Below the pieces are notes generated by a model. That model ran no database searches. It was not told the origin of the DNA and was given only the letters and a program-made list of their open reading frames with translations. From a virus (taxonomy: Duplodnaviria > Caudoviricetes), in the IMG/VR virus record IMGVR_UViG_3300036766_000221, positions 1-58,172 of that record: 58,172 nt of DNA. One strand, 5' to 3'. The translations under genes were made by a program, and so were the position numbers. This document shows, piece by piece, positions 104-57,207 of this stretch (its first letter is position 1; the number at the start of each line of letters is the position of its first letter).

Positions 104-556
104 CTGCCGCAGCCATGGCACGAATGAAGCCGAACCGCCAAAGTCAAAGTCATCAAACCAGGCCGCCAGGGTGCCAGTTCTCATCCGCGCGCCCAGCCAC
201 AACACCTGCTCCGGCCGCGGCTTCTTACCGGGCGCTTTCAGTTCGAAGAAAAAGAATTCCACGCGCCCAGCGTCTCTGAGCGGCCGGTACGCGAACCAGT
301 CTGCGGCGCCCTTCTCGCCGATCCGGATGCGGCTCTCCGGATCGTAAGGCCGCGCGAATAATCCAGAGTTCTGCCGCACCACGGTCCAGCCCAGCGCTTG
401 CAGGTACCGGACCACTTGCGCTGTGAGCTGGTTCTCCGGTAGATCCTCACGCTTGCGCTTTGGTCGCGGGAGTCTCGCGGGAGTCTCGCGGGAAGATTTT
501 TCACGGCTGCGCTCCATGAACGCAAACTGCTCGGTGGTGAGACGAATCCTACTCAC
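59..556 (-). CDS. VRR-NUC domain nuclease, allele A
   Basis: GTG start with GGAGG SD; E..L...GW, G.AD and FELKAPGKKP..EQ..W PD-(D/E)xK motifs; paralogous to 56698..57207. Confidence 0.8.
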   Translation of the reverse strand: MSRIRLTTEQFAFMERSREKSSRETPARLPRPKRKREDLPENQLTAQVVRYLQALGWTVVRQNSGLFARPYDPESRIRIGEKGAADWFAYRPLRDAGRVEFFFFELKAPGKKPRPEQVLWLGARMRTGTLAAWFDDFDFGGSASFVPWLRQHFGRSPGDAPGIGL

Positions 557-722: not shown

Positions 723-1340
723 AAGCGCGCCTACTTTGTCGTTATCCGTCTGGACCTCACCGAACAGCGCCACAATCCACAAGCGCTTGCCCTTCCACTG
801 GTCTGGATTTAGTGTTGCGTGGAGAGCTCCCGGACCACACAGCCGAAGTGGTCCTTGGACTTCCTGCACTACTCCGGGCTGTGCGGGGACGCCATGCCCA
901 CCATTGGCCGGCGCACCGTCTTCGCACGATCTCCAAAAAGCCAGATAGGCATCGGAACGCCACAGCTCCCGAAAACGTTTTTGTTGCTGCTCGCCCCAAG
1001 CTTTGATCGCCGTCTGCGCGCAAGCCCACCAATAGCCGTCGCCGTCGCCGTCGCCGTAGCCGGAGCCGGAGCCGGAGCCGGAGCCGTAGCCGGAGCCGTA
1101 GCCGTCGCCGGAGCCGTAGCCGGAGCCGTAGCCGTCGCCGGAGCCGTAGCCGTCGCCGTAGCCGGAGCCGTAGCCGTCGCCGTCGCCGTCGCCGTAGCCG
1201 TCGCCGTAGCCGTAGCCGGAGTCGCAACCGGAGCCGTAACCGGAGCCGTCGCCGTAGCCGTAGCCGGAGCCGGAGCCGGAAAACTTTTCAACCCACCGAG
1301 GGATTACGCCGAATACTACGCCCACGGAGATTTTTCCCAT
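693..1340 (-). CDS. Gly-Tyr/Ser/Asp (GYGDGSG) low-complexity repeat protein with a conserved C-terminal phage domain
   Basis: About 80 aa of G-x repeats encoded by 6-nt units (1035..1280); C-terminal LCGPGALHAT...WIVALFGEV...KVGALKREII; start uncertain. Confidence 0.75.
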   Translation of the reverse strand: MGKISVGVVFGVIPRWVEKFSGSGSGYGYGDGSGYGSGCDSGYGYGDGYGDGDGDGYGSGYGDGYGSGDGYGSGYGSGDGYGSGYGSGSGSGSGYGDGDGDGYWWACAQTAIKAWGEQQQKRFRELWRSDAYLAFWRSCEDGAPANGGHGVPAQPGVVQEVQGPLRLCGPGALHATLNPDQWKGKRLWIVALFGEVQTDNDKVGALKREIIGEVK

Positions 1341-43025: not shown

Positions 43026-44958
43026 TGGATTGCCTCCTGGCTCGGCTTTGCCGTGCCGTTCTGACGCGCGGCCGCTCGGACCGCGTTGATTGCCATCCTG
43101 AATTCGTTATCGAGCACATCATCGCTGACCTTTGCGCCGGCGAGACGCTTGTGCATCCCGGAAATGTAGACGCCGATGCGGTCCTGAACCTCAGGCGGAG
43201 CCATAGCCTCTTCGGTCGATGCAAAAGCGGCATCCGCAATCGTCATAAGAATCGGCGCGAAAGCCCGGTGAAAGTCCCTTGCATCCGGCTTATTCAGTGC
43301 CTGAAGCCGATTAAAGGCATCGGTAAAGAGCCTTGAATAGCGCTGGGCTGCCTTGTCATCCGCTGCGGGAGAGTTGGGCTCAGCCGTCTGCCCGTCTCCC
43401 GGCTTAGCTGCAAGCGGATGCGCGGCGTCTTGCATGTTGACCGGCATCCAATAAGTTTCCCCAGCCGGACCTTTGATAGGATTCCAATCTAGGAAAAATT
43501 CCCGGATGTCATCCGAATTAGCTATGCCCCACTGTTTCAGAAGGGCAATCAACTTGCCTCGCGATTCCGCATCTGGCGTCAGCAGATCCTGGTAATAGAA
43601 ACCTGGAAAATACTTCCCAGCAGTCCGACCGGTCTTGGGGAATAGCTTGCGCTTTAGTTCCGGCTCCCAGGCTTTGATCCATGGACGCAGGGTATATTGA
43701 ACGAACTCAATCGCTTCCTGCTCCGCAGTCGCCCGATTCGACTTCCCGCCTTCGCCGAGCATACGCTCCGGGACATGAAAAATAGCGCCAATTTCCTGGC
43801 GCTGATGAACGCGCGTTTCCAAAAATTGCGCCTCGTTTGGCTTTACATCAGACTGATGCCAAGTCATCCCGGTTTCGAGCACCATCGGCGTCAGCATGTT
43901 TTCGCCACCTTGGGACTCACGAAGGGACTGTTTGAATGCCTGAATGGCTTCGGGCTTCATCGTGTTCGGTAATTCAACAACGCCGGTAGGCCGAATGCCA
44001 TTGGCGAAGAACTTGCCGGCAAACTTTTCAGTGGCGAGCGACAGACCCATGACCTGGCGCGACAGTTCAACGACGGATTTCGCCAGACGGCCATCGAGTG
44101 AAAGCCCCAGAACATGGAGCATGTTGTCGGCTGATATCAGCCGCTCGGGAGAAGTCCCAGCGCCTCCAAGCCCGGCGCCATCGGTTGTCGTATAAACCAG
44201 TGCTCCCCGTTCCAGCTTTTCATCCCCAACGGTTTGTGCCTCGGTCAAGCGTCGCGGACGTGTGGCATTCGGATCCCTCGGCCAAAGTCCCTTAATGCGA
44301 TTCGCTTGGTCTCTTTCGATTTCTGCATAAGCATTGCCCCACAGGAGCGCGTGGCATTGCAGCGTCTTCATGAACGTGAACCCGGTCATTTCCTTGTTGG
44401 GTTCGTCGTGGAGAATCCAATGAAGATCCTGATCAAAGGCGAGACGCTTGCCGCGCGGCTCCAGTTGCTCGTAGACGTTAAGGTCGAGAGACCCTATGCC
44501 GCCAGAGATCAGATCCACGCAGGTGTAGACCGTTGAAACTTGGAGCGCGGTGAGTTCGGAAACGCGGATACCGGCATCCGTCCGGCCACCGTTGAATCAC
44601 ATTGTTGCGCGGCGCCCGCATCCGACGACGCTCTGCATGTTCCCATGCAGATCAGACTATATCTTCAGTTCGTACACGAACCGCCGCGCGCTTCGGAGTC
44701 GCTGACTCCTACTCCCTCTCGGGATAGTCGTTACACCTTCCCCGGATTTTATCGGGGCTTGGCTCGGTATTGGCCGGTCTGGCGTTCCACCGAGTTCACG
44801 CGGTTACGACACATTCAACTGTTTTGGTTTATGTCGAGTAACCATTCTGCTGGGACATGATATTTATCGAATGGTCACTGCTGTCCCTCCCAGAATTGTT
44901 AGGACAGTGGAGTTGCAGGATTTTCCAAACTACTGCGGAACTGCTTTAAGAAGCCCGT
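43022..44958 (-). CDS. HK97-family portal protein, three exons: join(44958..44901, 44855..44831, 44597..43022), about 552 aa
   Basis: Spliced N-terminus reads GFLKQFRSSLENPATPLS-F-PAEWLLD-I-FNGGRTDAGIRVSELTALQVSTVYTCVDLI, in frame with portal motifs (LLWGNAYA, KFFANG.RP, EAQFLETR). Confidence 0.88.
44598..44830 (-). ncRNA. Group I intron (233 nt, IA-like, no ORF) in the portal gene
   Basis: P1 CGACAU/GUGUCG with U.G; P10 GUUGAAU/AUUCAAC; P3 CCGCGUG/CGCGCGG; P4 CUCGGU/ACCGAG; P7 GACUA/UAGUC; S element AAGAUAUAGUC; P7.1, P7.2, P8, P9; terminal G. Confidence 0.93.
44856..44900 (-). ncRNA. 45-nt core-less group-I-like mini-intron
   Basis: 5' exon ends in U and intron ends in G; P1 CUGUCCU/GGGACAG; P10 CUGGGA/UCCCAG; two in-frame stops; removal restores the portal frame. 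Confidence 0.8.
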
Positions 44959-49183: not shown

Positions 49184-49579
49184 TCAAGCACTCAGACAAT
49201 CGGTTACCGTCAACCGAAACAGCGGCGCGTCTTCCGGGTCAATCCTGCGAAACGCTACTGTGTGGCCGGAGATGGCTGGCATGTGGCCGCGGTCATCGCA
49301 AATCTCGCAGCCGGAGCCAGCGCACGCGACACATTGCGCAACTCCGCCCCAGATTTGTTCTCTGAACGAGTACCGCTGGCCGGCGAGTGGGGAAACTGAA
49401 GTCAATTTCCGCACTGGCAGTAAAGCTTCGTCTTCGAGACTGCAAGATGCTCGGATCGAGCGCTTGTCAATGCGCACAGCTTGTCCAGCGGCTTCCATGC
49501 GCGCAGCTTTCTCGGCATGGATCACGGCGATGACGCCACAACGTCCGACCAAGCGGACCTTTTCAACAAACCTTGCCAT
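49184..49579 (-). CDS. Hypothetical protein
   Basis: First sizeable ORF after attP; contains CxxC motifs. Confidence 0.5.
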   Translation of the reverse strand: MARFVEKVRLVGRCGVIAVIHAEKAARMEAAGQAVRIDKRSIRASCSLEDEALLPVRKLTSVSPLAGQRYSFREQIWGGVAQCVACAGSGCEICDDRGHMPAISGHTVAFRRIDPEDAPLFRLTVTDCLSA

Positions 49580-49770
49580 TGAGTTGGGAAATTGAGACGA
49601 AAAATCCCTGCGAAAATTATCGGAGAACTCGGGTGCTGCGTTCCGGCCCCGGAGACCGGTCCTACGAAATAGGTACACTCCGCTGAAGCCCTATTCGTGT
49701 AAAGCGTAGCACAACTTCTAGGTGCACGGAAACAGTTTTCGGGAGAAATGTTTAGGAAACCATGGGCGAC

Positions 49771-49978
49771 TGTGGCGGTTTTTGTGACGGTCCAACTATC
49801 AGTTGGTGTCACAGCGCACCAAACAAACCCCATGAAATCGTTGGAAAACTGCGCATCATGGCACCTGCTGTACCCCCGTAATTACATTTGAAGTCCGGGC
49901 TGCGCACCGGCGCAGACTAGCTCCCGTGGCCTTAGAATCATGGCGTTAGCGGTTTTTGTGGCGGTTTTTGTGGCGGTT
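49771..49978. promoter_or_regulatory. attP region with integrase arm-type repeats
   Basis: TGTGGCGGTTTTTGTGACGG at 49771 and tandem GCGGTTTTTGTG x2 + GCGGTT at 49949..49978 flank a tRNA fragment, just downstream of int. Confidence 0.75.
49886..49925 (-). tRNA. selC: 5' half of tRNA-Sec (fragment, attP core)
   Basis: GGGAGCTA-GT-CTGCGC CGGT GCGCAG-C-CCGGA-CTTCAAA-T: 8-nt acceptor strand, 6-bp D-stem with 4-nt loop, UCA anticodon; 3' half absent. Confidence 0.85.
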
Positions 49979-50049
49979 GCTCATAATTGCGGCTATGCGG
50001 AATCCAGCGTAGAATGACCGGAAGTCAGGCGCAAGAAAATAATTGCGGC

Positions 50050-51117
50050 TCACGCCTTCTTCTCCTTCGGCTTCTTGCCCATAGCCTCCAGCTTTCGCCC
50101 CGCTTCGGCGATATCCTCGCTGGAAACAATCGAGTACCGCCGGTAGACCGCCTCGGTCTTGTGCCCACTGATCTTCATGGCCACCGACCGTGGGATCCCA
50201 GCCCGCTCCATATTGCGAACCGCAGACCTCCGCAAGTCATGGAAAAGCAAGGCAGGAAACCCCGCGCGAACGCATGCGCTACGCCATGACCGGTCGAACT
50301 GCCTGACTTGCCTGCCATCTTCGTGGATGCAGAGCCATGGCAACGGAAACTTGCCGCTGCGCTTGGCCTGAGTGGTCCGCTGGTGCAATCTGGCGGCGAT
50401 CATCTCCCGCACATCGCCGTAGATCGGCAACACCCGGCCTTCGTCGTTTTTCGTCTCTCCAGCATGCAGGCGTATCTGGTTGAGCTCCAAGTCCACCTGA
50501 TCGACCCGCAGGCCCAGGAGCTCACCCTTGCGCGCGCCGGTGCGGTACGCCAGAGCCGCCAGCAGGCGGATCGGCTTCGGGAGTTCCCGGAGGATTGCGG
50601 CATAGGTCCGATCTTCCACAAATCCTTTGCGTGGCGGGTTTTCCTTGAGGGCCGGAATATGCGGTATCCTCCCGATCAGTGGCGGGTCATGCTGCATCGC
50701 CAGGACCAGACTACGCTTTACTACAGCCAATTCTCTGTTGACTGTTGCCGCCTGGATCCCGGCCTTGGTGCGCTGCTCGATGTAGCACTGGATCGCTTCG
50801 CTGCCGAACTGCTCAACCCGGATGCGCCCTATCTTTGGCCGCAACTGGCGGTCAATACGCAACTTTAGGTCATAGATGGATTTTCGTTTGTGCCGGATGT
50901 AGTCCTGGAGCACCAGGTCCAGCAGTTGCGACATGCGCATGTGACGCGAAGCCAGTTTCCCCGCAATCGCTTCGCCCTGCCGCCGCTTCAGCAGTTTCAC
51001 TGCGTCATCCTTGCGCTCAGAATCGCTGGATTCCCGGTGCCGCTGCCCGTTGCGCCAATATTGAATCCACCAGAGATCACCGCGCAAATAGATTGTGCCG
51101 AGTCCGTATCGACTCAT
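50050..51117 (-). CDS. int: Tyrosine integrase
   Basis: TGARKGEL (R), ETKN (K), HDLRR, GHK and VYRRY motifs; N-terminal arm-binding domain. Confidence 0.95.
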   Translation of the reverse strand: MSRYGLGTIYLRGDLWWIQYWRNGQRHRESSDSERKDDAVKLLKRRQGEAIAGKLASRHMRMSQLLDLVLQDYIRHKRKSIYDLKLRIDRQLRPKIGRIRVEQFGSEAIQCYIEQRTKAGIQAATVNRELAVVKRSLVLAMQHDPPLIGRIPHIPALKENPPRKGFVEDRTYAAILRELPKPIRLLAALAYRTGARKGELLGLRVDQVDLELNQIRLHAGETKNDEGRVLPIYGDVREMIAARLHQRTTQAKRSGKFPLPWLCIHEDGRQVRQFDRSWRSACVRAGFPALLFHDLRRSAVRNMERAGIPRSVAMKISGHKTEAVYRRYSIVSSEDIAEAGRKLEAMGKKPKEKKA

Positions 51118-51123
51118 TGAGGT

Positions 51124-51166
51124 TCCTCGCCTTGCCGTGCCTTGCCGCGCCCAGCCGTGCCTAGAC
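51124..51166 (-). repeat. GGC-NN pentamer array 1 (7 GGC units) in the int leader
   Basis: GGC AC GGC TG GGC GC GGC AA GGC AC GGC AA GGC GA GGA. Confidence 0.9.
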
Positions 51167-51270
51167 GAACAATATACCGCAACCGCCCCAGGATATTTTC
51201 AACTGCCCTTGTCTTGCAACGTCAAGTCTTGCGCAATCATTCGCGACAGCACGCCGAGCCGGGCACGGAA

Positions 51271-51795
51271 TCACTGAACCTTATCCACCTTGTCGGTTTT
51301 CCCGCTGAACAATGCCAACGTCTCGCTCGCAGGCAGAATGCGCGAAGCCGATTCCGTCGCCGCCGCGATTCTCTTCGTCGCGCTCGGCTTCATCATGTGG
51401 TTGATGATTCCCGCTTGTGAAAATAACGTTAGAAAACTGTTTTGCTCCACTTTCGTTAGTGCCTTTTGCTTTTCGATTGGAACGAGCGTCGCCAGCCCTC
51501 CCATCACACGTCGAGCACTTCGGCCTACATGCTTCATTCCTCGCACGCCCCAGTTAATGGTTCCGCGCGAGTTCAGCCGTTTGATTCCAACTTTGGGAAT
51601 CACCTCCAACACGCACTCCTTCTCGCGTTGGAATCGCTTACGTGCTGTATACACATAGCCGTAGCCGTCGCCTTGCGGGTCTTTGTCGATGACGCCCTTC
51701 AGTGACTCGTAAGGGCAGATATCGCCGTCCTGCAAGAGCTGCTTCTCGAATTCGCCGAATACCAGAATGCTTTCAATCGCTGCTTCGTGTTTCAT
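51271..51795 (-). CDS. Hypothetical basic protein, partner of the RAMP-like gene
   Basis: ATG at 51795 with GAGGA SD formed by the end of array 2. Confidence 0.75.
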   Translation of the reverse strand: MKHEAAIESILVFGEFEKQLLQDGDICPYESLKGVIDKDPQGDGYGYVYTARKRFQREKECVLEVIPKVGIKRLNSRGTINWGVRGMKHVGRSARRVMGGLATLVPIEKQKALTKVEQNSFLTLFSQAGIINHMMKPSATKRIAAATESASRILPASETLALFSGKTDKVDKVQ

Positions 51796-51799
51796 ATGT

Positions 51800-51839
51800 T
51801 CCTCGCCTTGCCTCGCCTCGCCTGGCCGTGCCATGCCGC
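51800..51839 (-). repeat. GGC-NN pentamer array 2 (7 GGC units)
   Basis: GGC AT GGC AC GGC CA GGC GA GGC GA GGC AA GGC GA GGA. Confidence 0.9.
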
Positions 51840-51842
51840 AAA

Positions 51843-52400
51843 CTAACTCCATTTCACGTCATCGACCGAGAAGCGCCCATAGAACCCATTGTTCCGTGGA
51901 CGAAATCGCCCGATGCCGATGAACTTCCCGGCCTCTTCCAGATGCTTACGGAAAACGTCCAGCGTTATGGTGTCGTCGAGCACGTGGAACGTAACCTTGC
52001 CGGACCACTTCGGAATGACCGGGAAACATTTCCAGACTCGGCTCGTACCACCGCGCCGTCCATCAGACGGAACGTGCAACCATTCGCCTTGCACATCGTC
52101 TTTTCGCAGAGGCAATACCAGCGGCTCGACCACCAGCACGCCAGCCTCGAAATGCTTGGTATAGGTTGATTTTCCCTTGCCTGGAATCTGGATAGCCAGA
52201 AACTTCGCCACTTCCGCAATGCAATTTTTGAATGACATCGGCGGAATGAAAACCTGACCCTTGTCGTCGATGTGAAGGCGCTCCCGCCAAATCCGCGCCT
52301 CAAAATCCTTGTGAGTTTCTTTGTCCGGCTTTTCCGTCATAATCACTTTCGATTGACTATAAGCCGAAACGCTGCTGAGTACTGCCATCGCTACGTGCAT
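51843..52400 (-). CDS. Stand-alone RAMP/Cas7-like protein
   Basis: FIPPMSFKNCI helix motif; C-terminal Gly-rich loop AGKFIGIGRFRPRNNGFYGRFSV; no other cas genes. Confidence 0.7.
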   Translation of the reverse strand: MHVAMAVLSSVSAYSQSKVIMTEKPDKETHKDFEARIWRERLHIDDKGQVFIPPMSFKNCIAEVAKFLAIQIPGKGKSTYTKHFEAGVLVVEPLVLPLRKDDVQGEWLHVPSDGRRGGTSRVWKCFPVIPKWSGKVTFHVLDDTITLDVFRKHLEEAGKFIGIGRFRPRNNGFYGRFSVDDVKWS

Positions 52401-52420
52401 TCTGTTCCTTTCGTTGTTAA

Positions 52421-52494
52421 ACTTTGCCTTGTCTTGCCGAATCTAGCCGCACTCAATCCTGCCATGCGAAGTCATGCCTAATCCGGGCCAAATC
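52421..52494 (-). repeat. Degenerate RRY-NN pentamer array 3 (~15 units) in the RAMP leader
   Basis: GATTT GGCCC(G) GATTA GGCAT GACTT CGCAT GGCAG GATTG AGTGC GGCTA GATTC GGCAA GACAA GGCAA AGT. Confidence 0.8.
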
Positions 52495-52499
52495 ATCTT

Positions 52500-52751
52500 T
52501 CACTTACTCGCCTGAATCAACGCATCCAAATCTTTGATGTCAAACAGAAAGTTCCGGTGTAGTCTTACCCGTCGCAAGTCTCCGCTCGCCACGTGATTCT
52601 TCACCGTTTTCTCCGAGCACGAGAGATACAGCGCCGCATCCGCTAGGTTCAGCAGGCGCCGCGTGGCCGGCTGCTTCGTCTCCATCTCGGCCAGCACTTC
52701 GCGGACGATATCGCGTACTAGCGGCTGGAACGGGTTGGCGGATTGGGCCAT
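52500..52751 (-). CDS. xis: Excisionase-like HTH protein
   Basis: LLNLADAALYLSCSEKTV...G.L..VR......DLDALI. Confidence 0.85.
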   Translation of the reverse strand: MAQSANPFQPLVRDIVREVLAEMETKQPATRRLLNLADAALYLSCSEKTVKNHVASGDLRRVRLHRNFLFDIKDLDALIQASK

Positions 52752-53033
52752 CTAGTTCAGCTTCTTCAGCTCTCCGCGCAGCCGGGCGATCTCGCGCTGC
52801 TCGAATTGAGCGCGACAGAAACCTCCACACTTATGCCAATCGTCCTCGGCTAGTGGTGACTTATGCCAGCATCCACCGCAATGCTTCGTCGCGCACGCCT
52901 CATACACGCCGATGGCGGTTTCGATGAGGGCACGAGCGATGCGCCGTTGTTCCAGGACATCAGTGCCGCTCATGATTGACTCTGCCACCTCGGCCAGCGT
53001 CGTCTCCGCGTTCAGGAGTTTGGGGTCAGTCAT
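52752..53033 (-). CDS. Hypothetical protein (Cys-rich C-terminus)
   Basis: Adjacent to xis. Confidence 0.55.
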   Translation of the reverse strand: MTDPKLLNAETTLAEVAESIMSGTDVLEQRRIARALIETAIGVYEACATKHCGGCWHKSPLAEDDWHKCGGFCRAQFEQREIARLRGELKKLN

Positions 53034-53173
53034 ACCACTAATCTTGACTTTTCTAGTCTTAACTGTGCCAGTTTTGCACATGCGGAGCTTGTGTACCGGT
53101 CATAATGCCCAGGGCACCGCTCTGGCGGCTGCCCTTTTTCCTTGGGGAATTATATACATGACTCCCTTCGCTC

Positions 53174-53722
53174 TTAATTCTCAACAGGTTTCCGCTTGCG
53201 CGCTTTCTTCCGTTTCCGCGCCTTTTTGGCCTGAGACTTTGGGCGGTAGGCGAGCACCACGTCTGTTATCCGATCGTGTTTGTTGCCTTCCTTGCCGCCA
53301 AAGAACGCTTCGTCAACCTCAACGATGCCGCGCAGCTTGTCGATGCTGTCGGGAGCGCTGCAAGCCTCCCGGAGCCGGGAAAGCATGAACCATGCCGACT
53401 TCTGGGTGACGCCGATTTCTTTGGCCAATTGCATCGAGGAGATGCCCTTACGGGCGGTCACCAGCAGATACATGGCATAGACCCACTTGTGAAGTGGGAT
53501 GTGGCTGCGCCCAAAGATCGTTCCGGTACGCACGGTAAAGTCGAGTTGGCAGGCGTTACAGCGGTAGAATCCCGCTTTGCGCGGGGTAATTCGCTCGCTG
53601 GCTTTGCATGTTGGGCAAACCGTACCGTTAGGCCAGAGACGGCCCTCCAAATATTCGCGCGCCGCCTCTTCGTCCGGGAAGATCTCGAACAGTTTGAAAG
53701 TACTGATAGTGCTCTTGCTCAT
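53174..53722 (-). pseudogene. IS1595 transposase, internally deleted
   Basis: Zn ribbon (WPNG..CP.C...C..C..FTVRTGTIF), HTH (KGISSMQL) and only the first catalytic D (VEVDE). Confidence 0.85.
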
Positions 53723-53824
53723 TGTGAAATCCTTTGCCGAGTTACGTATCGGCCCCGATTTCCCTTCGGACGCCCCGCTTGTGCGGAGGATCGCTCGCGC
53801 GACCGAGGCACGCGGCGGAGGTCG

Positions 53825-54151
53825 TTAGCGTGTCACCGATCCGATAATGTCGCCATCGGTTGGGCATCGGCGTGCCAACACAGCAGCTTTCCATTCATCG
53901 AATTTTTGGGCTGCCTGCTCGCCGGTGAGTCCGGTCATTTTGCGCCCGACCCATGGCTTCGCGCGGCCACCCTTGAAGGGATGATAGGATGCGCTCAGAT
54001 AGTCGTCGTCGAAGCTCTCTTGCACGGCCCATCCGCATTCGACGCTATACGTGCCGTCCAGCCCGACCCGCAAAAAGTAGAAACATTGATCCAAGCCCGC
54101 ACCCCAGGTATTGCCGGGGGTGATTTGTTGCGTTGCTTCTATCGTCGTCAT
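53825..54151 (-). CDS. IS passenger hypothetical protein
   Basis: AGGAG SD; inside the TIRs. Confidence 0.65.
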   Translation of the reverse strand: MTTIEATQQITPGNTWGAGLDQCFYFLRVGLDGTYSVECGWAVQESFDDDYLSASYHPFKGGRAKPWVGRKMTGLTGEQAAQKFDEWKAAVLARRCPTDGDIIGSVTR

Positions 54152-54565
54152 TTTCTTTCTCCTGCCCGATGGATTCGGGCTTCTTGCTACTCTTTAATTG
54201 TACTTGACTCCCGCACAGGAAGCAAGGGGAAAATGCAATCGGATGTAAGATTTTTGAAGAAAAGGCGAAGGGAGTCATGTATATAATTCCCGAAATTAAG
54301 GGCATCGTCTCCTCGATTCTCTCACGCGCGCCTTGACTGGGCAGGCACGCGCAGGGCGAACGCCAGATCGCGGCAAAACCGGCATTTCCTGATGTTTCGA
54401 CCATCCCCGCGCAGTTGGGGTGCCACGGTACAGATGGACAGGTTTTTCTTTGAATTTACGCGAAATCGTTTTCTTGCCACGTGCCGTCCTCGCCACTGCA
54501 TCGCTTCCACGTTTCCGCATGCTTCCTTCTCCTGGGTTATACAAACCTACTGGCGAGGACTACAC

Positions 54566-54757
54566 CTAGCAGCAATCGGCATTCCTGTGCTCGCCACTGC
54601 CACCGTTTTTTACTCCAGCGCTAAATCTTTCGTTCTTCGCCCGTTTGTGCCAGGACCACACTCGCTGATAAGCCACTTTCTCTCGGCGCACTTTGTCGCG
54701 TTTCGCCTGGCGATCAGCGAAGCCGGTGAGCGCGGCGCGCACGTAGTCGAGTTTCAT
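54566..54757 (-). CDS. Small hypothetical protein
   Basis: ATGA coupling. Confidence 0.5.
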   Translation of the reverse strand: MKLDYVRAALTGFADRQAKRDKVRREKVAYQRVWSWHKRAKNERFSAGVKNGGSGEHRNADCC

Positions 54758-55017
54758 CGGCGTCCCTGCTGGTGCGTTTGATATTCGGCTTCCAGCGCCC
54801 GCCCCAACGCACAGTTGCACCTGCCCGTGTAATCGTTGCGCACCATCATGTCGATCTCGGTATATGGCGCGTTTTCCCGGTTCGCCTTGTGTTGTGCCAG
54901 TTCATTTTTGCTCACCAGGTAGGGGTCGCGTTCGAGTTTTTGGTATGAACGCCACCCTCGCAGACAGAGTGCGCACGCCGGCGGGAATTTGGAGACATGC
55001 TCCCAGCTGTAATTCAT
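54754..55017 (-). CDS. Hypothetical protein
   Basis: ATGA coupling; CxxC and CxC motifs. Confidence 0.6.
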   Translation of the reverse strand: MNYSWEHVSKFPPACALCLRGWRSYQKLERDPYLVSKNELAQHKANRENAPYTEIDMMVRNDYTGRCNCALGRALEAEYQTHQQGRR

Positions 55018-55529
55018 TTTCCCCTGGCTCCACGTTTGCCGCGGGCCTTGTCGGCCTCCAGCTCCGCTTCCAGTTCTGCGATGGTCTTGCGCCGCACCAC
55101 CAGCCCAGGCTCGCGTTTGCGTTCACGCGCCGCAGCTATTTTGATTTTCAGTTCTTCCAGCAGCGCCTGGTACTCTTTGTCCTCGGTGAGATCGGCTGCT
55201 TCGAGACGCGGCAATTCCCGAGGGGTCAACGCGGCCCAGTCGATGTGGGCGTCAGCCTCCGGGTTGCCGTCTTCGTCCTTCACTGTCTCGACCGGATAGA
55301 CGCCATCGGCAGGGTTGAACCGCGCGCAGAATATCGCCCGCATCTGCCCCGGTCCGGGCCACTCCGAGCGCCGCGCCATCTCCTGCGCTAGCCATTCGAG
55401 TTGCTCATCGTTGGCGCACATTTCGCGCAACAAACCGACCAGTGCCCCCCTAAAATCGGCATCGCTAGGGAAGAATTTCATCAGTGAAAGTGTCCCCATC
55501 GCCGATTTCATTACTCGCGCGGATATCAT
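55014..55529 (-). CDS. Replication-associated hypothetical protein
   Basis: Directly after the initiator; GGAGG SD. Confidence 0.6.
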   Translation of the reverse strand: MISARVMKSAMGTLSLMKFFPSDADFRGALVGLLREMCANDEQLEWLAQEMARRSEWPGPGQMRAIFCARFNPADGVYPVETVKDEDGNPEADAHIDWAALTPRELPRLEAADLTEDKEYQALLEELKIKIAAARERKREPGLVVRRKTIAELEAELEADKARGKRGARGK

Positions 55530-56438
55530 TCAAACCTCCCGTTTTCTCGCTTGATTTGCCTTGAAACGCTGGTTTTCTTCATGGAGTTTTATAGCCTTGT
55601 CGTTTATCGATTCCTGGATGGGTTCGGCTGGCGGGCTCATTTTCCACGTTTCCTCTGCTATCGTCTCGGCCAGGTTCTGCTTGCAATAACGCCAGCCGGT
55701 CCGTTCCCAGTGGCTGATCCAGTTCGTTACCCCTCGGATTACGACATCGAGCGGAGAGCCCCGGTTAAGGGTTTCGATGAGGTACTGCTGGGCAATCTGT
55801 TTATGCCCTGGCTTTTTCCAGGCGTTATACAGATTCTCGAAGCCGTTCTGGAATTCCGCAGGCATCACGGCCGTGCTTTTCTCAGCCGGTTTTGTTGGTT
55901 CAACCCCCGGTGTTTTTGGGCTTGGCATTTCGGGGTTTTCCACAGATCTACGAACCGTAGAAACTGCCGGGGGTTCCGGCTCGGCTTGGTAAGGCTTGGT
56001 AAGGTAAGGCAAGGCAGGGGGGTATGTCACGGGGGGTGACACTATGGGTGGCACTACAGTCTCACTGGTATGCGACTCTAACCTCGTGCCTCTAACTTGC
56101 TGATTAGAAGAGATGAGCTTATCGATAGCCGCCACCTTGTTTTTCGTTCCTGTTGTGGCATGTTCTAGCCAATCGTGCACCACGAGCCGGTGCGATGGGT
56201 GTACGTCGATCCATCGAGCCTCGATCAATGCCCGTATCAGTTTGGTGCCACTCCGTTCATCACGGTCGAAAGCCGCCGCAATTCGGCTGTCGCTATGCTT
56301 TCCAATATCACCCTTTGGAGCGTACTCGGCAGTAAAGTGGAAGAGTTGTTCGAGGATGCCAACGGCATAGACCCGAGGGACTTTTAAAATCTTCGCCAGT
56401 TCGAGTGTTTTTGGGTGGTTCGGTGTGCCGCGCTTCAC
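55530..56438 (-). CDS. Phage replication initiator/replisome organiser
   Basis: HPK...LA..L....AVG.LE.L...GDI; LVVHDW.EH; low-complexity linker; C-terminal FE.LY.AW.K. Confidence 0.75.
   Translation of the reverse strand: MKRGTPNHPKTLELAKILKVPRVYAVGILEQLFHFTAEYAPKGDIGKHSDSRIAAAFDRDERSGTKLIRALIEARWIDVHPSHRLVVHDWLEHATTGTKNKVAAIDKLISSNQQVRGTRLESHTSETVVPPIVSPPVTYPPALPYLTKPYQAEPEPPAVSTVRRSVENPEMPSPKTPGVEPTKPAEKSTAVMPAEFQNGFENLYNAWKKPGHKQIAQQYLIETLNRGSPLDVVIRGVTNWISHWERTGWRYCKQNLAETIAEETWKMSPPAEPIQESINDKAIKLHEENQRFKANQARKREV
55978..56017 (+). repeat. GGY-NN pentamer tract inside the initiator gene (possible origin)
   Basis: GGCTC GGCTT GGTAA GGCTT GGTAA GGTAA GGCAA GGCAG. Confidence 0.7.
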
Positions 56439-56701
56439 GTTTTTCCCGCCGCCTTTCGCCGGCCGGCGCCCGCCTTGGGTTTCGCTTTCGCCTTCGGCTT
56501 CTCCGTGTTCTTCCGGATCGCCCGGAGCGTCGCCGGAATCTGGATAAAATTCTTGCAACCCAGCAGCCGGTTCAGGGTGCACAGCTCTCTATAGATTCCG
56601 ATCAGGCAGGCCGTCTGAATCGTCTTTTTATCCACCTGGACAGGACCATCGACAAGTAGATCCCAGTTCGTCTCGGCCAGACTTTTCCAGTTTCTCGTCA
56701 T
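56435..56701 (-). CDS. Hypothetical protein
   Basis: Coupled on both sides. Confidence 0.7.
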   Translation of the reverse strand: MTRNWKSLAETNWDLLVDGPVQVDKKTIQTACLIGIYRELCTLNRLLGCKNFIQIPATLRAIRKNTEKPKAKAKPKAGAGRRKAAGKT

Positions 56702-57207
56702 AACCCAATCCCCGGCGCGTCGCCCGGCGAGCGCCCAAAGTGCCCCTTGTACCAGCGGCAGAATCCGTCGAGTGAGTCAACCCACGTCGCCTCCGCTCCA
56801 CTCACCCGCGCGCCAGCGAGCCAGTTGAGCTGATGCGGTTTCGGCTTCTGGCCTGGAGCCTTGACCTCGACAAACAGCAACTCGCAACGATCTACGCCCT
56901 TGCCTGCCCACTTCGGGCGCCAAGCCGCGTAATCCGCCACGCCGCGCTCGCCGAAGCTCACCCAGCCTCCATGCGCGTTCTGGCGGGCACCGGCGCTCAT
57001 TCGATACACCCGCCAGCCCAGAGCTTTCAGATAGCCCACGATCTGCTCTTCAACTTGATTTTCGGGAAGATTCTCGCGGCGCCGTGTTGGTCGCGGGAGT
57101 CTCGCGGGAGTCTCGCGGGAAGACTTTCGGCTTGACTCTGTGGTATAAGCGCCGCCTCGTTGCATGAACTCGAATTGCGCAGGGGACATCTTCACGCGGC
57201 CGCTCAC
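56698..57207 (-). CDS. VRR-NUC domain nuclease, allele B
   Basis: GVAD and FVEVKAPGQKP..HQ..W motifs; GGAGG SD. Confidence 0.8.
   Translation of the reverse strand: MSGRVKMSPAQFEFMQRGGAYTTESSRKSSRETPARLPRPTRRRENLPENQVEEQIVGYLKALGWRVYRMSAGARQNAHGGWVSFGERGVADYAAWRPKWAGKGVDRCELLFVEVKAPGQKPKPHQLNWLAGARVSGAEATWVDSLDGFCRWYKGHFGRSPGDAPGIGL

What the first reader, a model, noticed from the sequence alone, without database searches (positions are those of the whole stretch)
51121..52494. Stand-alone RAMP/Cas7-like gene with GGC-NN pentamer arrays between xis and int: candidate non-CRISPR RNA-guided system
Seen: a 185-aa protein with a RAMP-type C-terminal Gly loop (GIGRFRP...GRF.V) and an IP..S.K motif, one partner gene, and three non-coding arrays with strict 5-nt period (constant GGC/RRY plus a variable dinucleotide). 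Array 1 has NN = AC TG GC AA AC AA GA, array 2 has AT AC CA GA GA AA GA, and array 3 has about 15 degenerate units. There is no CRISPR array and no other cas gene. Established: Cas7-family RAMPs polymerise along RNA with fixed periodicity. Inference: each subunit binds one GGC, and the NN positions form a discontinuous guide against DNA or RNA, for example of rival phages. From memory this resembles recently reported phage VIPR systems (RAMP plus GGY/NN repeat RNA), which I cannot verify here.
Basis: partly seen in the sequence, partly recalled or inferred. Interest (0 to 1): 0.93.

Follow-up and report, generated by a model that had tools for sequence, protein, structure and literature searches.

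The report
Phage VIPR system between xis and int
This is a real copy of the VIPR system, a small Cas7-like protein plus five-base GGC-NN guide-RNA repeats that phages are thought to use to silence rival mobile DNA; the kind was published in 2026, so this is a new member and not a new kind.

Summary

Relatives carry co-oriented pentamer arrays: 85 of 98 loci against 0 of 98 shuffles. The constant triplet is kept while NN turns over, even between phages with identical vipr genes. The partner gene encodes a winged-helix protein conserved beside vipr in 77 of 178 loci.

This scan has already logged such systems on other DNA: 129 findings in at least 107 genomes.

Local particulars:
- Arrays 1 and 2 have no tail and run straight into the ribosome-binding sites of vap and int.
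- Array 3 is degenerate.

No natural target was found, and no RNA data exist. Guide function is inferred by homology.

The parts
51843..52400 (-). vipr: 185-aa Vipr-family RAMP protein
51271..51795 (-). vap-like accessory gene: 174 aa, N-terminal winged helix plus helical bundle
   Evidence: No Pfam or PHROG family. Homologues at 20-30% identity lie beside vipr on the same strand in 77 of 178 loci, 63 downstream and 14 upstream. AF2 pLDDT 93, with an H-S-H-H-S-S winged-helix order at residues 7-73. Foldseek gives only weak matches, E 0.07-0.4; the rows shown are mostly winged-helix regulators, with a few methyltransferases among them.
51122..51166 (-). Array 1 (candidate vrRNA): 7 strict GGC-NN units (51127-51161), one partial unit 5' and GGAAC 3', ending 4 nt before the int ATG
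51798..51842 (-). Array 2 (candidate vrRNA): starts 5 nt after the vipr stop codon; 7 strict units (51803-51837) plus GGAAC, ending 2 nt before the vap ATG
52419..52478 (-). Array 3: degenerate 12-unit array (6 GGC, 4 GAY, 1 CGC, 1 AGT) upstream of vipr, followed by a conserved leader with the ribosome-binding site
   Evidence: 8-unit score 20/24, reached by 4 of 30 shuffles. The 3' end and leader align with arrays upstream of vipr or vap in L002 and L020.
55978..56040 (+). Array 4: 8 strict GGY-NN units (55978-56017), then GGGGG and a 5-bp hairpin (56026-56040). It is antisense inside the replication-initiator ORF. It may be a solo vrRNA or, alternatively, origin or coding repeats.
   Evidence: (24/24). 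In five bacterial genomes (32 Mb) strict 8-unit arrays occur only on the three contigs that hold vipr, and the control pattern gives 0 matches.
50050..51117 (-). Tyrosine integrase, immediately downstream of array 1 (context, same operon direction)
   Evidence: PF00589, E 3e-20.
52500..52751 (-). HTH_17 excisionase-like regulator upstream of array 3 (context)
   Evidence: PF12728, E 1.8e-8; phrog_66, E 1.9e-7.
55530..56582 (-). Replication initiation / replisome-organiser gene that holds array 4 in its linker-coding part (context)
   Evidence: phrog_9474, E 3.1e-12; phrog_13246, E 2.9e-4.

Best explanation
The locus is a VIPR (Viral Interference Programmable Repeat) system carried in the lysogeny module of a temperate phage. 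The gene order on the minus strand is xis-like gene, array 3, vipr, array 2, vap, array 1, int.

Shown here:
- The 185-aa protein is a homologue of the solved SUSP1 Vipr and has a Cas7-type RAMP fold.
- It is flanked on its own strand by 5-nt GGC-NN arrays.
- Relatives carry the same arrangement, with a kept constant triplet and fast-changing NN.
- A winged-helix accessory gene travels with it.

Inferred by homology with the SUSP1 and P. fulva systems:
- Vipr protomers polymerise one per repeat on the array RNA, which is cut out of, or protected within, the operon transcript.
- The GGC bases are buried and the NN pairs are displayed.
- The filament binds double-stranded DNA whose sequence matches NN-x-NN-x (1-nt skip) and blocks transcription of a rival phage, satellite or prophage.
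- Vap acts as a DNA-binding helper.

The position next to int suggests expression from the prophage. With 8-9 units, each guide specifies about 16-18 bases.
For: Homology and fold:
- SUSP1 Vipr is the only PDB sequence hit, E 7.4e-4 for the single sequence and 7.8e-13 for the profile.
- G-loop G-x-G-x-[WF]-R-P...GRF is shared with SUSP1. Of the SUSP1 contacts named, W178 corresponds to F166 and R179 to R167.

Arrays:
- 12 matches against 1.23 expected.
- strict GGY arrays of 4 or more units in 54 of 98 related loci.
- 8-unit xxC-NN arrays in 85 of 98 loci against 0 of 98 shuffles. The constant triplet is GGC in 48, CGC in 13, GAC in 12 and GTC in 5.
- 280 arrays on the vipr strand against 1 on the other strand in 178 loci. 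The median is 8 strict units, so 7-8 units is normal for this clade.
- in 37 positionally matched array pairs from phages with at least 90% identical vipr, mismatches are 13, 15 and 22 of 454 at triplet positions, and 260 and 252 of 454 at NN positions.
- phages with 100% identical vipr (L061, L063, L065) have different arrays.

Accessory gene and context:
- a winged-helix partner is conserved beside vipr. This fits the published statement that vap genes of types II, VI and VII are predicted DNA binders.
- Virus record with int and xis.
Against: No expression or binding data: no RNA run is listed.

No natural target was found:
- Own genome: no match above unit-permuted controls.
- IMG/VR with array 1's 16-base gapped pattern: 20 hits, against 23 for a unit-permuted control.
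- Array 2: 59 hits in 33 unrelated groups, all reading as a common acidic codon pattern.
- Array 3: 0 hits.
- Two long guides from relatives: 58 and 14 seed hits, none extending beyond 45%.
- One 14-unit guide: 0 of 301 genomes.
- 118 clade guides against 0.9 Mb of VIPR loci: no excess for skips of 0-3.
The 1-nt skip rule is therefore untested for this clade.

Arrays 1 and 2 lack the conserved structured 3' tail of type II vrRNAs (fold z-scores -1.24 and +1.86).

By the alignment, two SUSP1 guanine contacts are not kept: D177 corresponds to R165 and R138 to F126.
Confidence: 0.85

Rival explanations
1. The arrays are cis-acting leaders rather than trans-acting guides. Vipr coats the GGC repeats of the operon mRNA and covers the ribosome-binding sites of vap and int, in the manner of a TRAP-like translational repressor. 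The NN bases would carry no information.
For: Arrays 1 and 2 end 2 and 4 nt before the start codons, and their last units supply the GAGGA ribosome-binding site. They have no tail. Arrays are almost always co-oriented with the genes, 280 against 1. 122 of 215 arrays in relatives end within 80 nt of the start of an ORF of at least 100 aa, against 350 of 890 random positions.
Against: NN and unit number change completely between phages whose vipr genes are 100% identical. Neutral drift of a pure binding site would not do this. In most relatives a separate leader with its own ribosome-binding site lies between array and start codon, so covering the site is not a general property. Some relatives carry runs of several arrays with hairpin tails far from any start codon (L070, L093). 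The homologous SUSP1 RNAs are proven guides.
Confidence: 0.07
2. Array 4 (55978-56040, plus strand) is not a guide RNA gene. It is the phage replication origin (iterons inside the initiator gene's linker, as in lambda O; recalled) or simply a repeat in the coding sequence.
For: It lies inside the linker-coding part of a replication-initiator ORF. It contains a perfect 10-nt tandem duplication. It is on the opposite strand to vipr, whereas 280 of 281 arrays near vipr in relatives are co-oriented. In 5 whole relative records, all 59 six-unit matches, which fall in three of the records, are on the vipr strand. No promoter-like site was found for it. Its NN are low-complexity and A/T-rich.
Against: Eight consecutive strict GGY-NN units score 24/24, above all 30 shuffles, whose maximum is 21. 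In 32 Mb of five bacterial genomes such 8-unit runs occur only on the contigs that hold vipr, with 0 control matches. Its last units (GGCAA GGCAG GGG) resemble the clade's array ends, and a hairpin follows, as in L070. Solo vrRNAs away from vipr are published.
Confidence: 0.4
3. The cassette is a decaying, inactive remnant: short arrays, one degenerate array, and no function in this phage.
For: Array 3 is degenerate. Arrays 1 and 2 have 7 strict units against the 9-16 reported for type II. No target was found.
Against: vipr and vap are intact ORFs with very confident folds. The nearly invariant family residues are present. The median array in the clade has 8 strict units. Mixed GGC/GAC units are common in relatives' arrays.
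Confidence: 0.05

Closest known systems
Type II VIPR of Escherichia phage SUSP1 and the Pseudomonas fulva prophage (bioRxiv 10.64898/2026.04.26.720920 and 10.64898/2026.04.26.720927; PDB 36pp)
   Same: Small Vipr RAMP, homologous at profile E 7.8e-13. GGY-NN pentamer arrays flank the gene on the same strand. There is one small accessory gene predicted to bind DNA. The element is a phage or prophage, with no CRISPR array.
   Different: The proteins are distant: the single-sequence hit covers only residues 116-180. Arrays have 7-9 units against 9-16. There is no conserved pseudoknot tail; arrays 1 and 2 run into the next gene's ribosome-binding site. By alignment, the SUSP1 G-contacts D177 and R138 are not kept. 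The VIPR type (I-VII) could not be assigned, because the classification is in figures and supplements that I could not see.
Non-canonical VIPR arrays (GAC/NN, CAC/NN and others) in bioRxiv 10.64898/2026.10.21.760802 (passages read), and the alternative NNNGG/YNNNG/NNNNG repeats in 10.64898/2026.04.26.720920
   Same: Relatives of this Vipr at 42-70% identity use GAC, CGC, GTC or CTC as the constant triplet. Array 3 here mixes GGC with GAY and CGC units.
   Different: Arrays 1, 2 and 4 here are canonical GGY.
Solo or orphan vrRNAs of satellites and VIPR-null phages (bioRxiv 10.64898/2026.10.15.759431; abstract and one Results section read)
   Same: Array 4 is a stand-alone array, 3.6 kb from vipr.
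   Different: Here the phage has its own vipr. The array is antisense inside a coding gene. It is not shown to be transcribed.
Cas7-family backbone subunits of class 1 CRISPR effectors (Csm3, Cmr4, type VII Cas7)
   Different: No PDB Cas7 is detectable by sequence, even with the profile. There is no CRISPR array and there are no neighbouring cas genes. The period is 5 nt with 3 buried bases, against 6 nt with 1 flipped base.

Membership tests
VIPR system | Vipr protein: a homologue of the characterised Vipr RAMP | tested here: met
   phmmer E 7.4e-4 and profile E 7.8e-13 to PDB 36pp_D 'SUSP1 Vipr protein'; no other PDB hit at E<=1.
VIPR system | Tandem YNNGG / GGY-NN repeats of at least 4 units next to vipr | tested here: met
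   Two arrays of 7 strict units abut the gene and its partner; 12 matches against 1.23 expected.
VIPR system | Constant triplet conserved and NN hypervariable among relatives | tested here: met
   Arrays in 85 of 98 loci against 0 of 98 shuffles. Mismatches are 3-5% at triplet positions and 56-57% at NN positions in 37 array pairs. One member of each pair was chosen as a strict GGY run, which biases the triplet figure downwards.
VIPR system | Minimal locus with one vap accessory gene predicted to act on DNA | tested here: met
   The 174-aa partner is conserved in 77 of 178 loci. A winged-helix N-domain is modelled at pLDDT 93. Fold matches are only weak, E>=0.07. It was not compared with a named vap1-6, whose sequences are not in the text I could read.
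VIPR system | No CRISPR array and no cas operon | tested here: met
   No CRISPR-like repeats by TRF and no Rfam CRISPR family in the whole window. The 10 neighbouring ORFs scanned have no Cas Pfam family. The remaining ORFs of the window were not scanned.
VIPR system | Arrays transcribed into vrRNAs of about 100 nt or less that co-purify with Vipr | not testable with these tools
   Only one DNA run holds the stretch and no RNA holder is listed.
VIPR system | Conserved structured 3' tail after the repeats (type II) | tested here: inconclusive
   Arrays 1 and 2 end in a clade-wide GGCAA-GGCRA-GGWWY motif and then the next gene; their fold z-scores are -1.24 and +1.86. Array 4 is followed by a 5-bp hairpin. 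The papers say architectures differ between types.
VIPR system | Guides match dsDNA of rival mobile elements by the 1-nt skip rule | tested here: inconclusive
   No target above controls was found in the own genome, in IMG/VR by exact gapped patterns, in 0.9 Mb of related loci, or in 301 genomes.
VIPR system | GGY-contacting residues of SUSP1 Vipr (H17, R138, D177, W178, R179) | tested here: inconclusive
   By the alignment, W178 corresponds to F166 and R179 to R167 (both kept in kind). D177 corresponds to R165 and R138 to F126 (not kept). H17 lies outside the aligned range. No structural superposition on 36pp was possible.
Class 1 CRISPR-Cas effector (Cas7 as part of a cas operon) | Cas7 encoded with other cas genes and a CRISPR array; 6-nt crRNA periodicity | tested here: not met
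   No CRISPR array. The neighbours are int, xis-like and vap-like genes. The repeats have a 5-nt period.
TRAP-type RNA-binding attenuation protein (recalled: ring of small beta-sandwich subunits binding (G/U)AG triplets spaced 2-3 nt) | TRAP fold and ring | tested here: inconclusive
   The model is a Cas7-type RAMP and every one of the 50 listed fold matches is a CRISPR effector. TRAP was not compared directly. Only the working analogy (protein oligomer on triplet repeats in a leader) was considered.

The most novel reading that the evidence does not exclude
In this phage the guide arrays double as translation-initiation regions. The last repeat units of arrays 1 and 2 are the ribosome-binding sites of vap and of the integrase. 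Vipr loading, or cutting out of the guide, would then shut off or sever translation of vap and int on the same transcript. That would tie integrase supply to the state of the RNA-guided system.

In addition, a fourth guide is encoded antisense inside the replication-initiator gene. Neither layout is mentioned in the parts of the VIPR papers that I read. A term search of the first paper found no 'Shine-Dalgarno' and no 'integrase'. Supplements were not seen.
Probability: 0.15. Interest if true: 0.55.

Novelty: new member of a known kind. Interest (0 to 1): 0.3.

Why it matters
It adds one temperate-phage example from a large, uncharacterised Vipr clade: 3835 clusters at 90% identity and 1274 representatives at 50%. 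This clade is distant from the only experimentally studied type.

Three things may be useful to people working on VIPR:
- The clade-wide 3' end motif.
- The range of constant triplets (GGC, GAC, CGC, GTC) within one protein clade.
- The fusion of arrays to ribosome-binding sites next to an integrase.

As a discovery it is overtaken by the 2026 preprints and by more than a hundred earlier findings of this scan.

Tried and rejected
Self-targeting. Arrays 1, 2 and 4 were tested against both strands of the 58-kb phage with skips of 0-3. The best score was 13 of 16, the same as unit-permuted controls. The only perfect matches were each array itself at skip 3.

IMG/VR, exact gapped patterns.
- Array 1: 20 hits, which fall into about 11 unrelated groups once near-identical or homologous contigs are merged. 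A unit-permuted control gave 23.
- Array 2: 59 hits in 33 groups. The largest (12 contigs) is a conserved acidic peptide in AT-rich phages, and the unit 5' of the match does not fit.
- Array 3, 9 units: 0 hits.
- Seeds of 8 units from the 19-unit guide of L061 and the 22-unit guide of L019: 58 and 14 hits. Non-seed match averaged 0.23 and 0.28, with maxima of 0.45 and 0.39.
None of this speaks for or against targeting, because no mismatch was allowed.

118 distinct guides of at least 9 units against 0.9 Mb of array-masked VIPR loci: counts at 80% or more were 10, 20, 15 and 15 for skips 0-3, against 11, 16, 15 and 15 for shuffled guides.

A 14-unit guide of L010 with up to 3 mismatches: 0 of 301 genomes of its order.

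Relatives of the replication-initiator gene in IMG/VR: none. I could therefore not ask whether array 4 is conserved.

No RNA holder is listed for the stretch.

int or xis homologues next to vipr in other loci: 0 of 178 by tblastn at E<=1e-4. The int context is therefore particular to this phage, or the recombinases are too divergent to detect this way.

A 'TAG' 5' boundary motif that I suspected occurs at only 9 of 79 boundaries. What is general is a pyrimidine 3 nt before the first GG (74 of 79), as the published YNNGG register predicts.

The promoter scan was at chance level, 2 found against 2.7 expected. The Rfam e-value scan of 49500-57000 found nothing relevant, including no hammerhead.

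The VIPR type (I-VII) was not assigned. The classification is in Fig. 5A, figs. S16-S17 and data S4, which are not held as text; supplements are closed.
Full report
What is there.

All genes between 50050 and 58082 lie on the minus strand. In the direction of transcription the order is:
- an unknown ORF (52752-53081);
- an HTH_17 excisionase-like gene (52500-52751; PF12728, E 1.8e-8; phrog_66);
- a 98-nt spacer holding array 3;
- the 185-aa ORF (51843-52400);
- a 47-nt spacer that is almost entirely array 2;
- a 174-aa ORF (51271-51795);
- a 153-nt spacer whose last 45 nt are array 1;
- a tyrosine integrase (50050-51117; PF00589, E 3e-20).

The record is a 58-kb virus record with 56.9% G+C.

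The arrays.

Each ends in the same GGCAA-GGCGA-GGAAC, 4 and 2 nt before the ATG of int and of the partner gene. The pattern of four GGC at 5-nt spacing, with up to 1 mismatch, occurs 12 times in the window against 1.23 expected, and 0 of 100 shuffles reach 12.

Array 3 is degenerate. It has 12 units, of which 6 are GGC. Its 8-unit score of 20/24 is reached by 4 of 30 shuffles. Its 3' units and the following leader align with the arrays and leaders upstream of vipr or vap in relatives L002 and L020, so I accept it as a decayed or mixed-triplet array.

It has eight strict GGY-NN units (24/24, against a shuffle maximum of 21), followed by GGGGG and a 5-bp hairpin.

The protein.

Pfam has no family for it. 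PHROGs has one of unknown function (phrog_4652, E 2e-13). Against all PDB sequences the single protein finds one chain, 36pp_D 'SUSP1 Vipr protein' (E 7.4e-4, residues 116-180). A profile of 75 family members finds the same chain alone at E 7.8e-13, over profile positions 15-182.

The family is large: 3835 clusters at 90% identity with E<=1e-3 and 1274 representatives at 50% identity.

The Gly loop G-x-G-R-F-R-P...G-R-F corresponds to SUSP1's G-V-G-D-W-R-P...G-R-F. The aromatic residue and the arginine that the cryo-EM paper assigns to G2 and Y3 are kept in kind. D177 and R138 are not kept by this alignment.

Relatives.

I fetched 18 loci from species genomes, 80 from IMG/VR and 80 from metagenomes.
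- Strict GGY arrays of at least 4 units occur in 54 of the first 98 loci.
- With any constant triplet allowed, 85 of 98 loci have an 8-unit array with at least 21 of 24 constant positions and variable NN, against 0 of 98 shuffled loci. The triplet is GGC in 48, CGC in 13, GAC in 12, GTC in 5, CTC in 2, and five others once each.
- Over all 178 loci there are 280 arrays of at least 5 strict units on the vipr strand and 1 on the other strand. The median length is 8 strict units. The commonest last unit is GGCAA, in 96 of 215 arrays.
- Phages whose vipr genes are identical at the nucleotide level (L061, L063, L065) carry quite different arrays.
- In 37 array pairs at the same position in phages with at least 90% identical vipr, mismatches are 13, 15 and 22 of 454 at the three constant positions, and 260 and 252 of 454 at the NN positions. 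One array of each pair was selected as strict GGY.
- A pyrimidine stands 3 nt before the first GG at 74 of 79 array starts, as the published YNNGG register predicts.
- In five bacterial genomes that hold a relative (32 Mb), strict 8-unit arrays occur only on the three contigs with vipr, and the control pattern gives none.

The partner.

The 174-aa ORF has no Pfam or PHROG family. It has homologues at 20-30% identity beside vipr, on the same strand, in 77 of 178 loci: 63 downstream and 14 upstream. Its model (pLDDT 93) is a winged helix at residues 7-73 followed by a helical bundle. Foldseek gives only weak matches (E 0.07-0.4), mostly to winged-helix regulators with a few methyltransferases among the rows shown. 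The profile touches the winged-helix domain of O6-alkylguanine transferases at E 0.1.

This fits the statement that vap genes of types II, VI and VII encode predicted DNA binders. It argues against the nuclease or helicase types III-V.

What is known.

VIPR was described in bioRxiv 10.64898/2026.04.26.720920. I read the Results, the Discussion and two Methods sections and ran term searches. The paper reports:
- a Vipr RAMP with vrRNAs of 9-16 YNNGG repeats and a 3' tail;
- NN pairing with double-stranded DNA, skipping every third base;
- transcriptional silencing, with targets in satellites and prophages;
- seven types and six vap families.

The companion cryo-EM paper, 10.64898/2026.04.26.720927 (two Results sections read), shows one protomer per repeat and the GGY contacts. 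A third preprint, 10.64898/2026.10.15.759431 (abstract and one section), describes solo vrRNAs. A fourth, 10.64898/2026.10.21.760802 (passages), reports non-canonical triplets such as GAC/NN and CAC/NN.

The locus meets every defining feature that can be tested from sequence. This scan had already logged the kind on other DNA: 129 findings in at least 107 genomes.

How it most likely works.

By homology, Vipr polymerises on the GGC-NN tracts of the operon transcript. It buries the GGC, displays 8-9 NN pairs, and binds matching NN-x-NN-x DNA of a competing element to block its transcription. The winged-helix Vap would act as helper. The place next to int fits expression from the prophage. The homology, the arrays and their evolutionary behaviour are shown. 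RNA production, binding, the skip rule and the target are inferred.

What I could not show.

No target was found:
- nothing in the phage itself above permuted controls;
- array 1's pattern has 20 IMG/VR hits against 23 for a permuted control;
- array 2's 59 hits fall in 33 unrelated groups and read as a common acidic codon string;
- array 3's pattern has none;
- long guides of relatives gave only chance seeds;
- 0 of 301 genomes matched a 14-unit guide;
- 118 clade guides show no excess against 0.9 Mb of VIPR loci for any skip.
The collection scans allow no mismatch, so this is uninformative rather than negative. No RNA run is listed.

Local peculiarities.

(a) In relatives a leader of 4-58 nt with its own ribosome-binding site usually separates array and start codon. 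Here arrays 1 and 2 are fused to it, so the last repeat units are the ribosome-binding sites of vap and int. Guide maturation or Vipr coating, and translation of those genes, may therefore compete on one transcript. This is speculation.

(b) Array 4 lies antisense in the linker-coding part of the replication-initiator gene (phrog_9474, E 3.1e-12). It could be a solo guide. It could also be the origin or a coding repeat, since it holds a perfect 10-nt duplication and has the unusual orientation. I put about 0.6 on a VIPR-related array and 0.4 on the rival.

(c) int and xis homologues are not found next to vipr in the other 178 loci. The two-gene cassette therefore moves between contexts.

Verdict.

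It is a new member of a known, recently published kind.

Noticed in passing
window 55978-56040 (+): A fourth strict GGY-NN array (8 units) with a hairpin lies antisense inside the replication-initiator ORF 55530-56582. It contains a perfect 10-nt tandem duplication at 55983-56004.
   Followed up: partly
L011:2280-2640 (+): Arrays in this Polyangiales MAG locus are followed by stretches resembling a tRNA T-arm (GGTTCGAnTCC...). This recalls the tRNA-like guide tails noted by an earlier follow-up (e1-5799093). I did not run it through ARAGORN.
   Followed up: no
L070:3563-5100 (+) and L093:3615-4946 (+): Relatives carry runs of 6-8 consecutive arrays of 9-17 units. In L070 each is followed by the same hairpin tail. 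These are multi-guide arrays, unlike the single short arrays of the window.
   Followed up: no
L003, L005, L006, L008, L009, L012-L016 (flanks of vipr): Sub-clades of the same Vipr family use other constant triplets on the gene strand: GAC, CGC, GTC/CTC and CAC. The third base is always C.
   Followed up: partly
window 1033-1278: A hexamer repeat (TAGCCG consensus, 41 copies, 83% matches), probably a dipeptide-repeat coding tract.
   Followed up: no
window 464-493 and 57091-57120: The same 11-nt unit (2.7 copies, 100% matches) occurs at both places, 56.6 kb apart. The contig ends themselves are not a terminal repeat.
   Followed up: partly
window 44633-44910 (-): Rfam group I intron (RF00028, 72 bits, E 2.3e-16). 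Other notes of this scan already cover it.
   Followed up: no
window 53174-53722 (-): An ORF with an IS1595-type zinc ribbon (PF12760, E 2.7e-11) but only the first 22 positions of the DDE domain. It is a truncated or domesticated transposase next to the lysogeny module.
   Followed up: no
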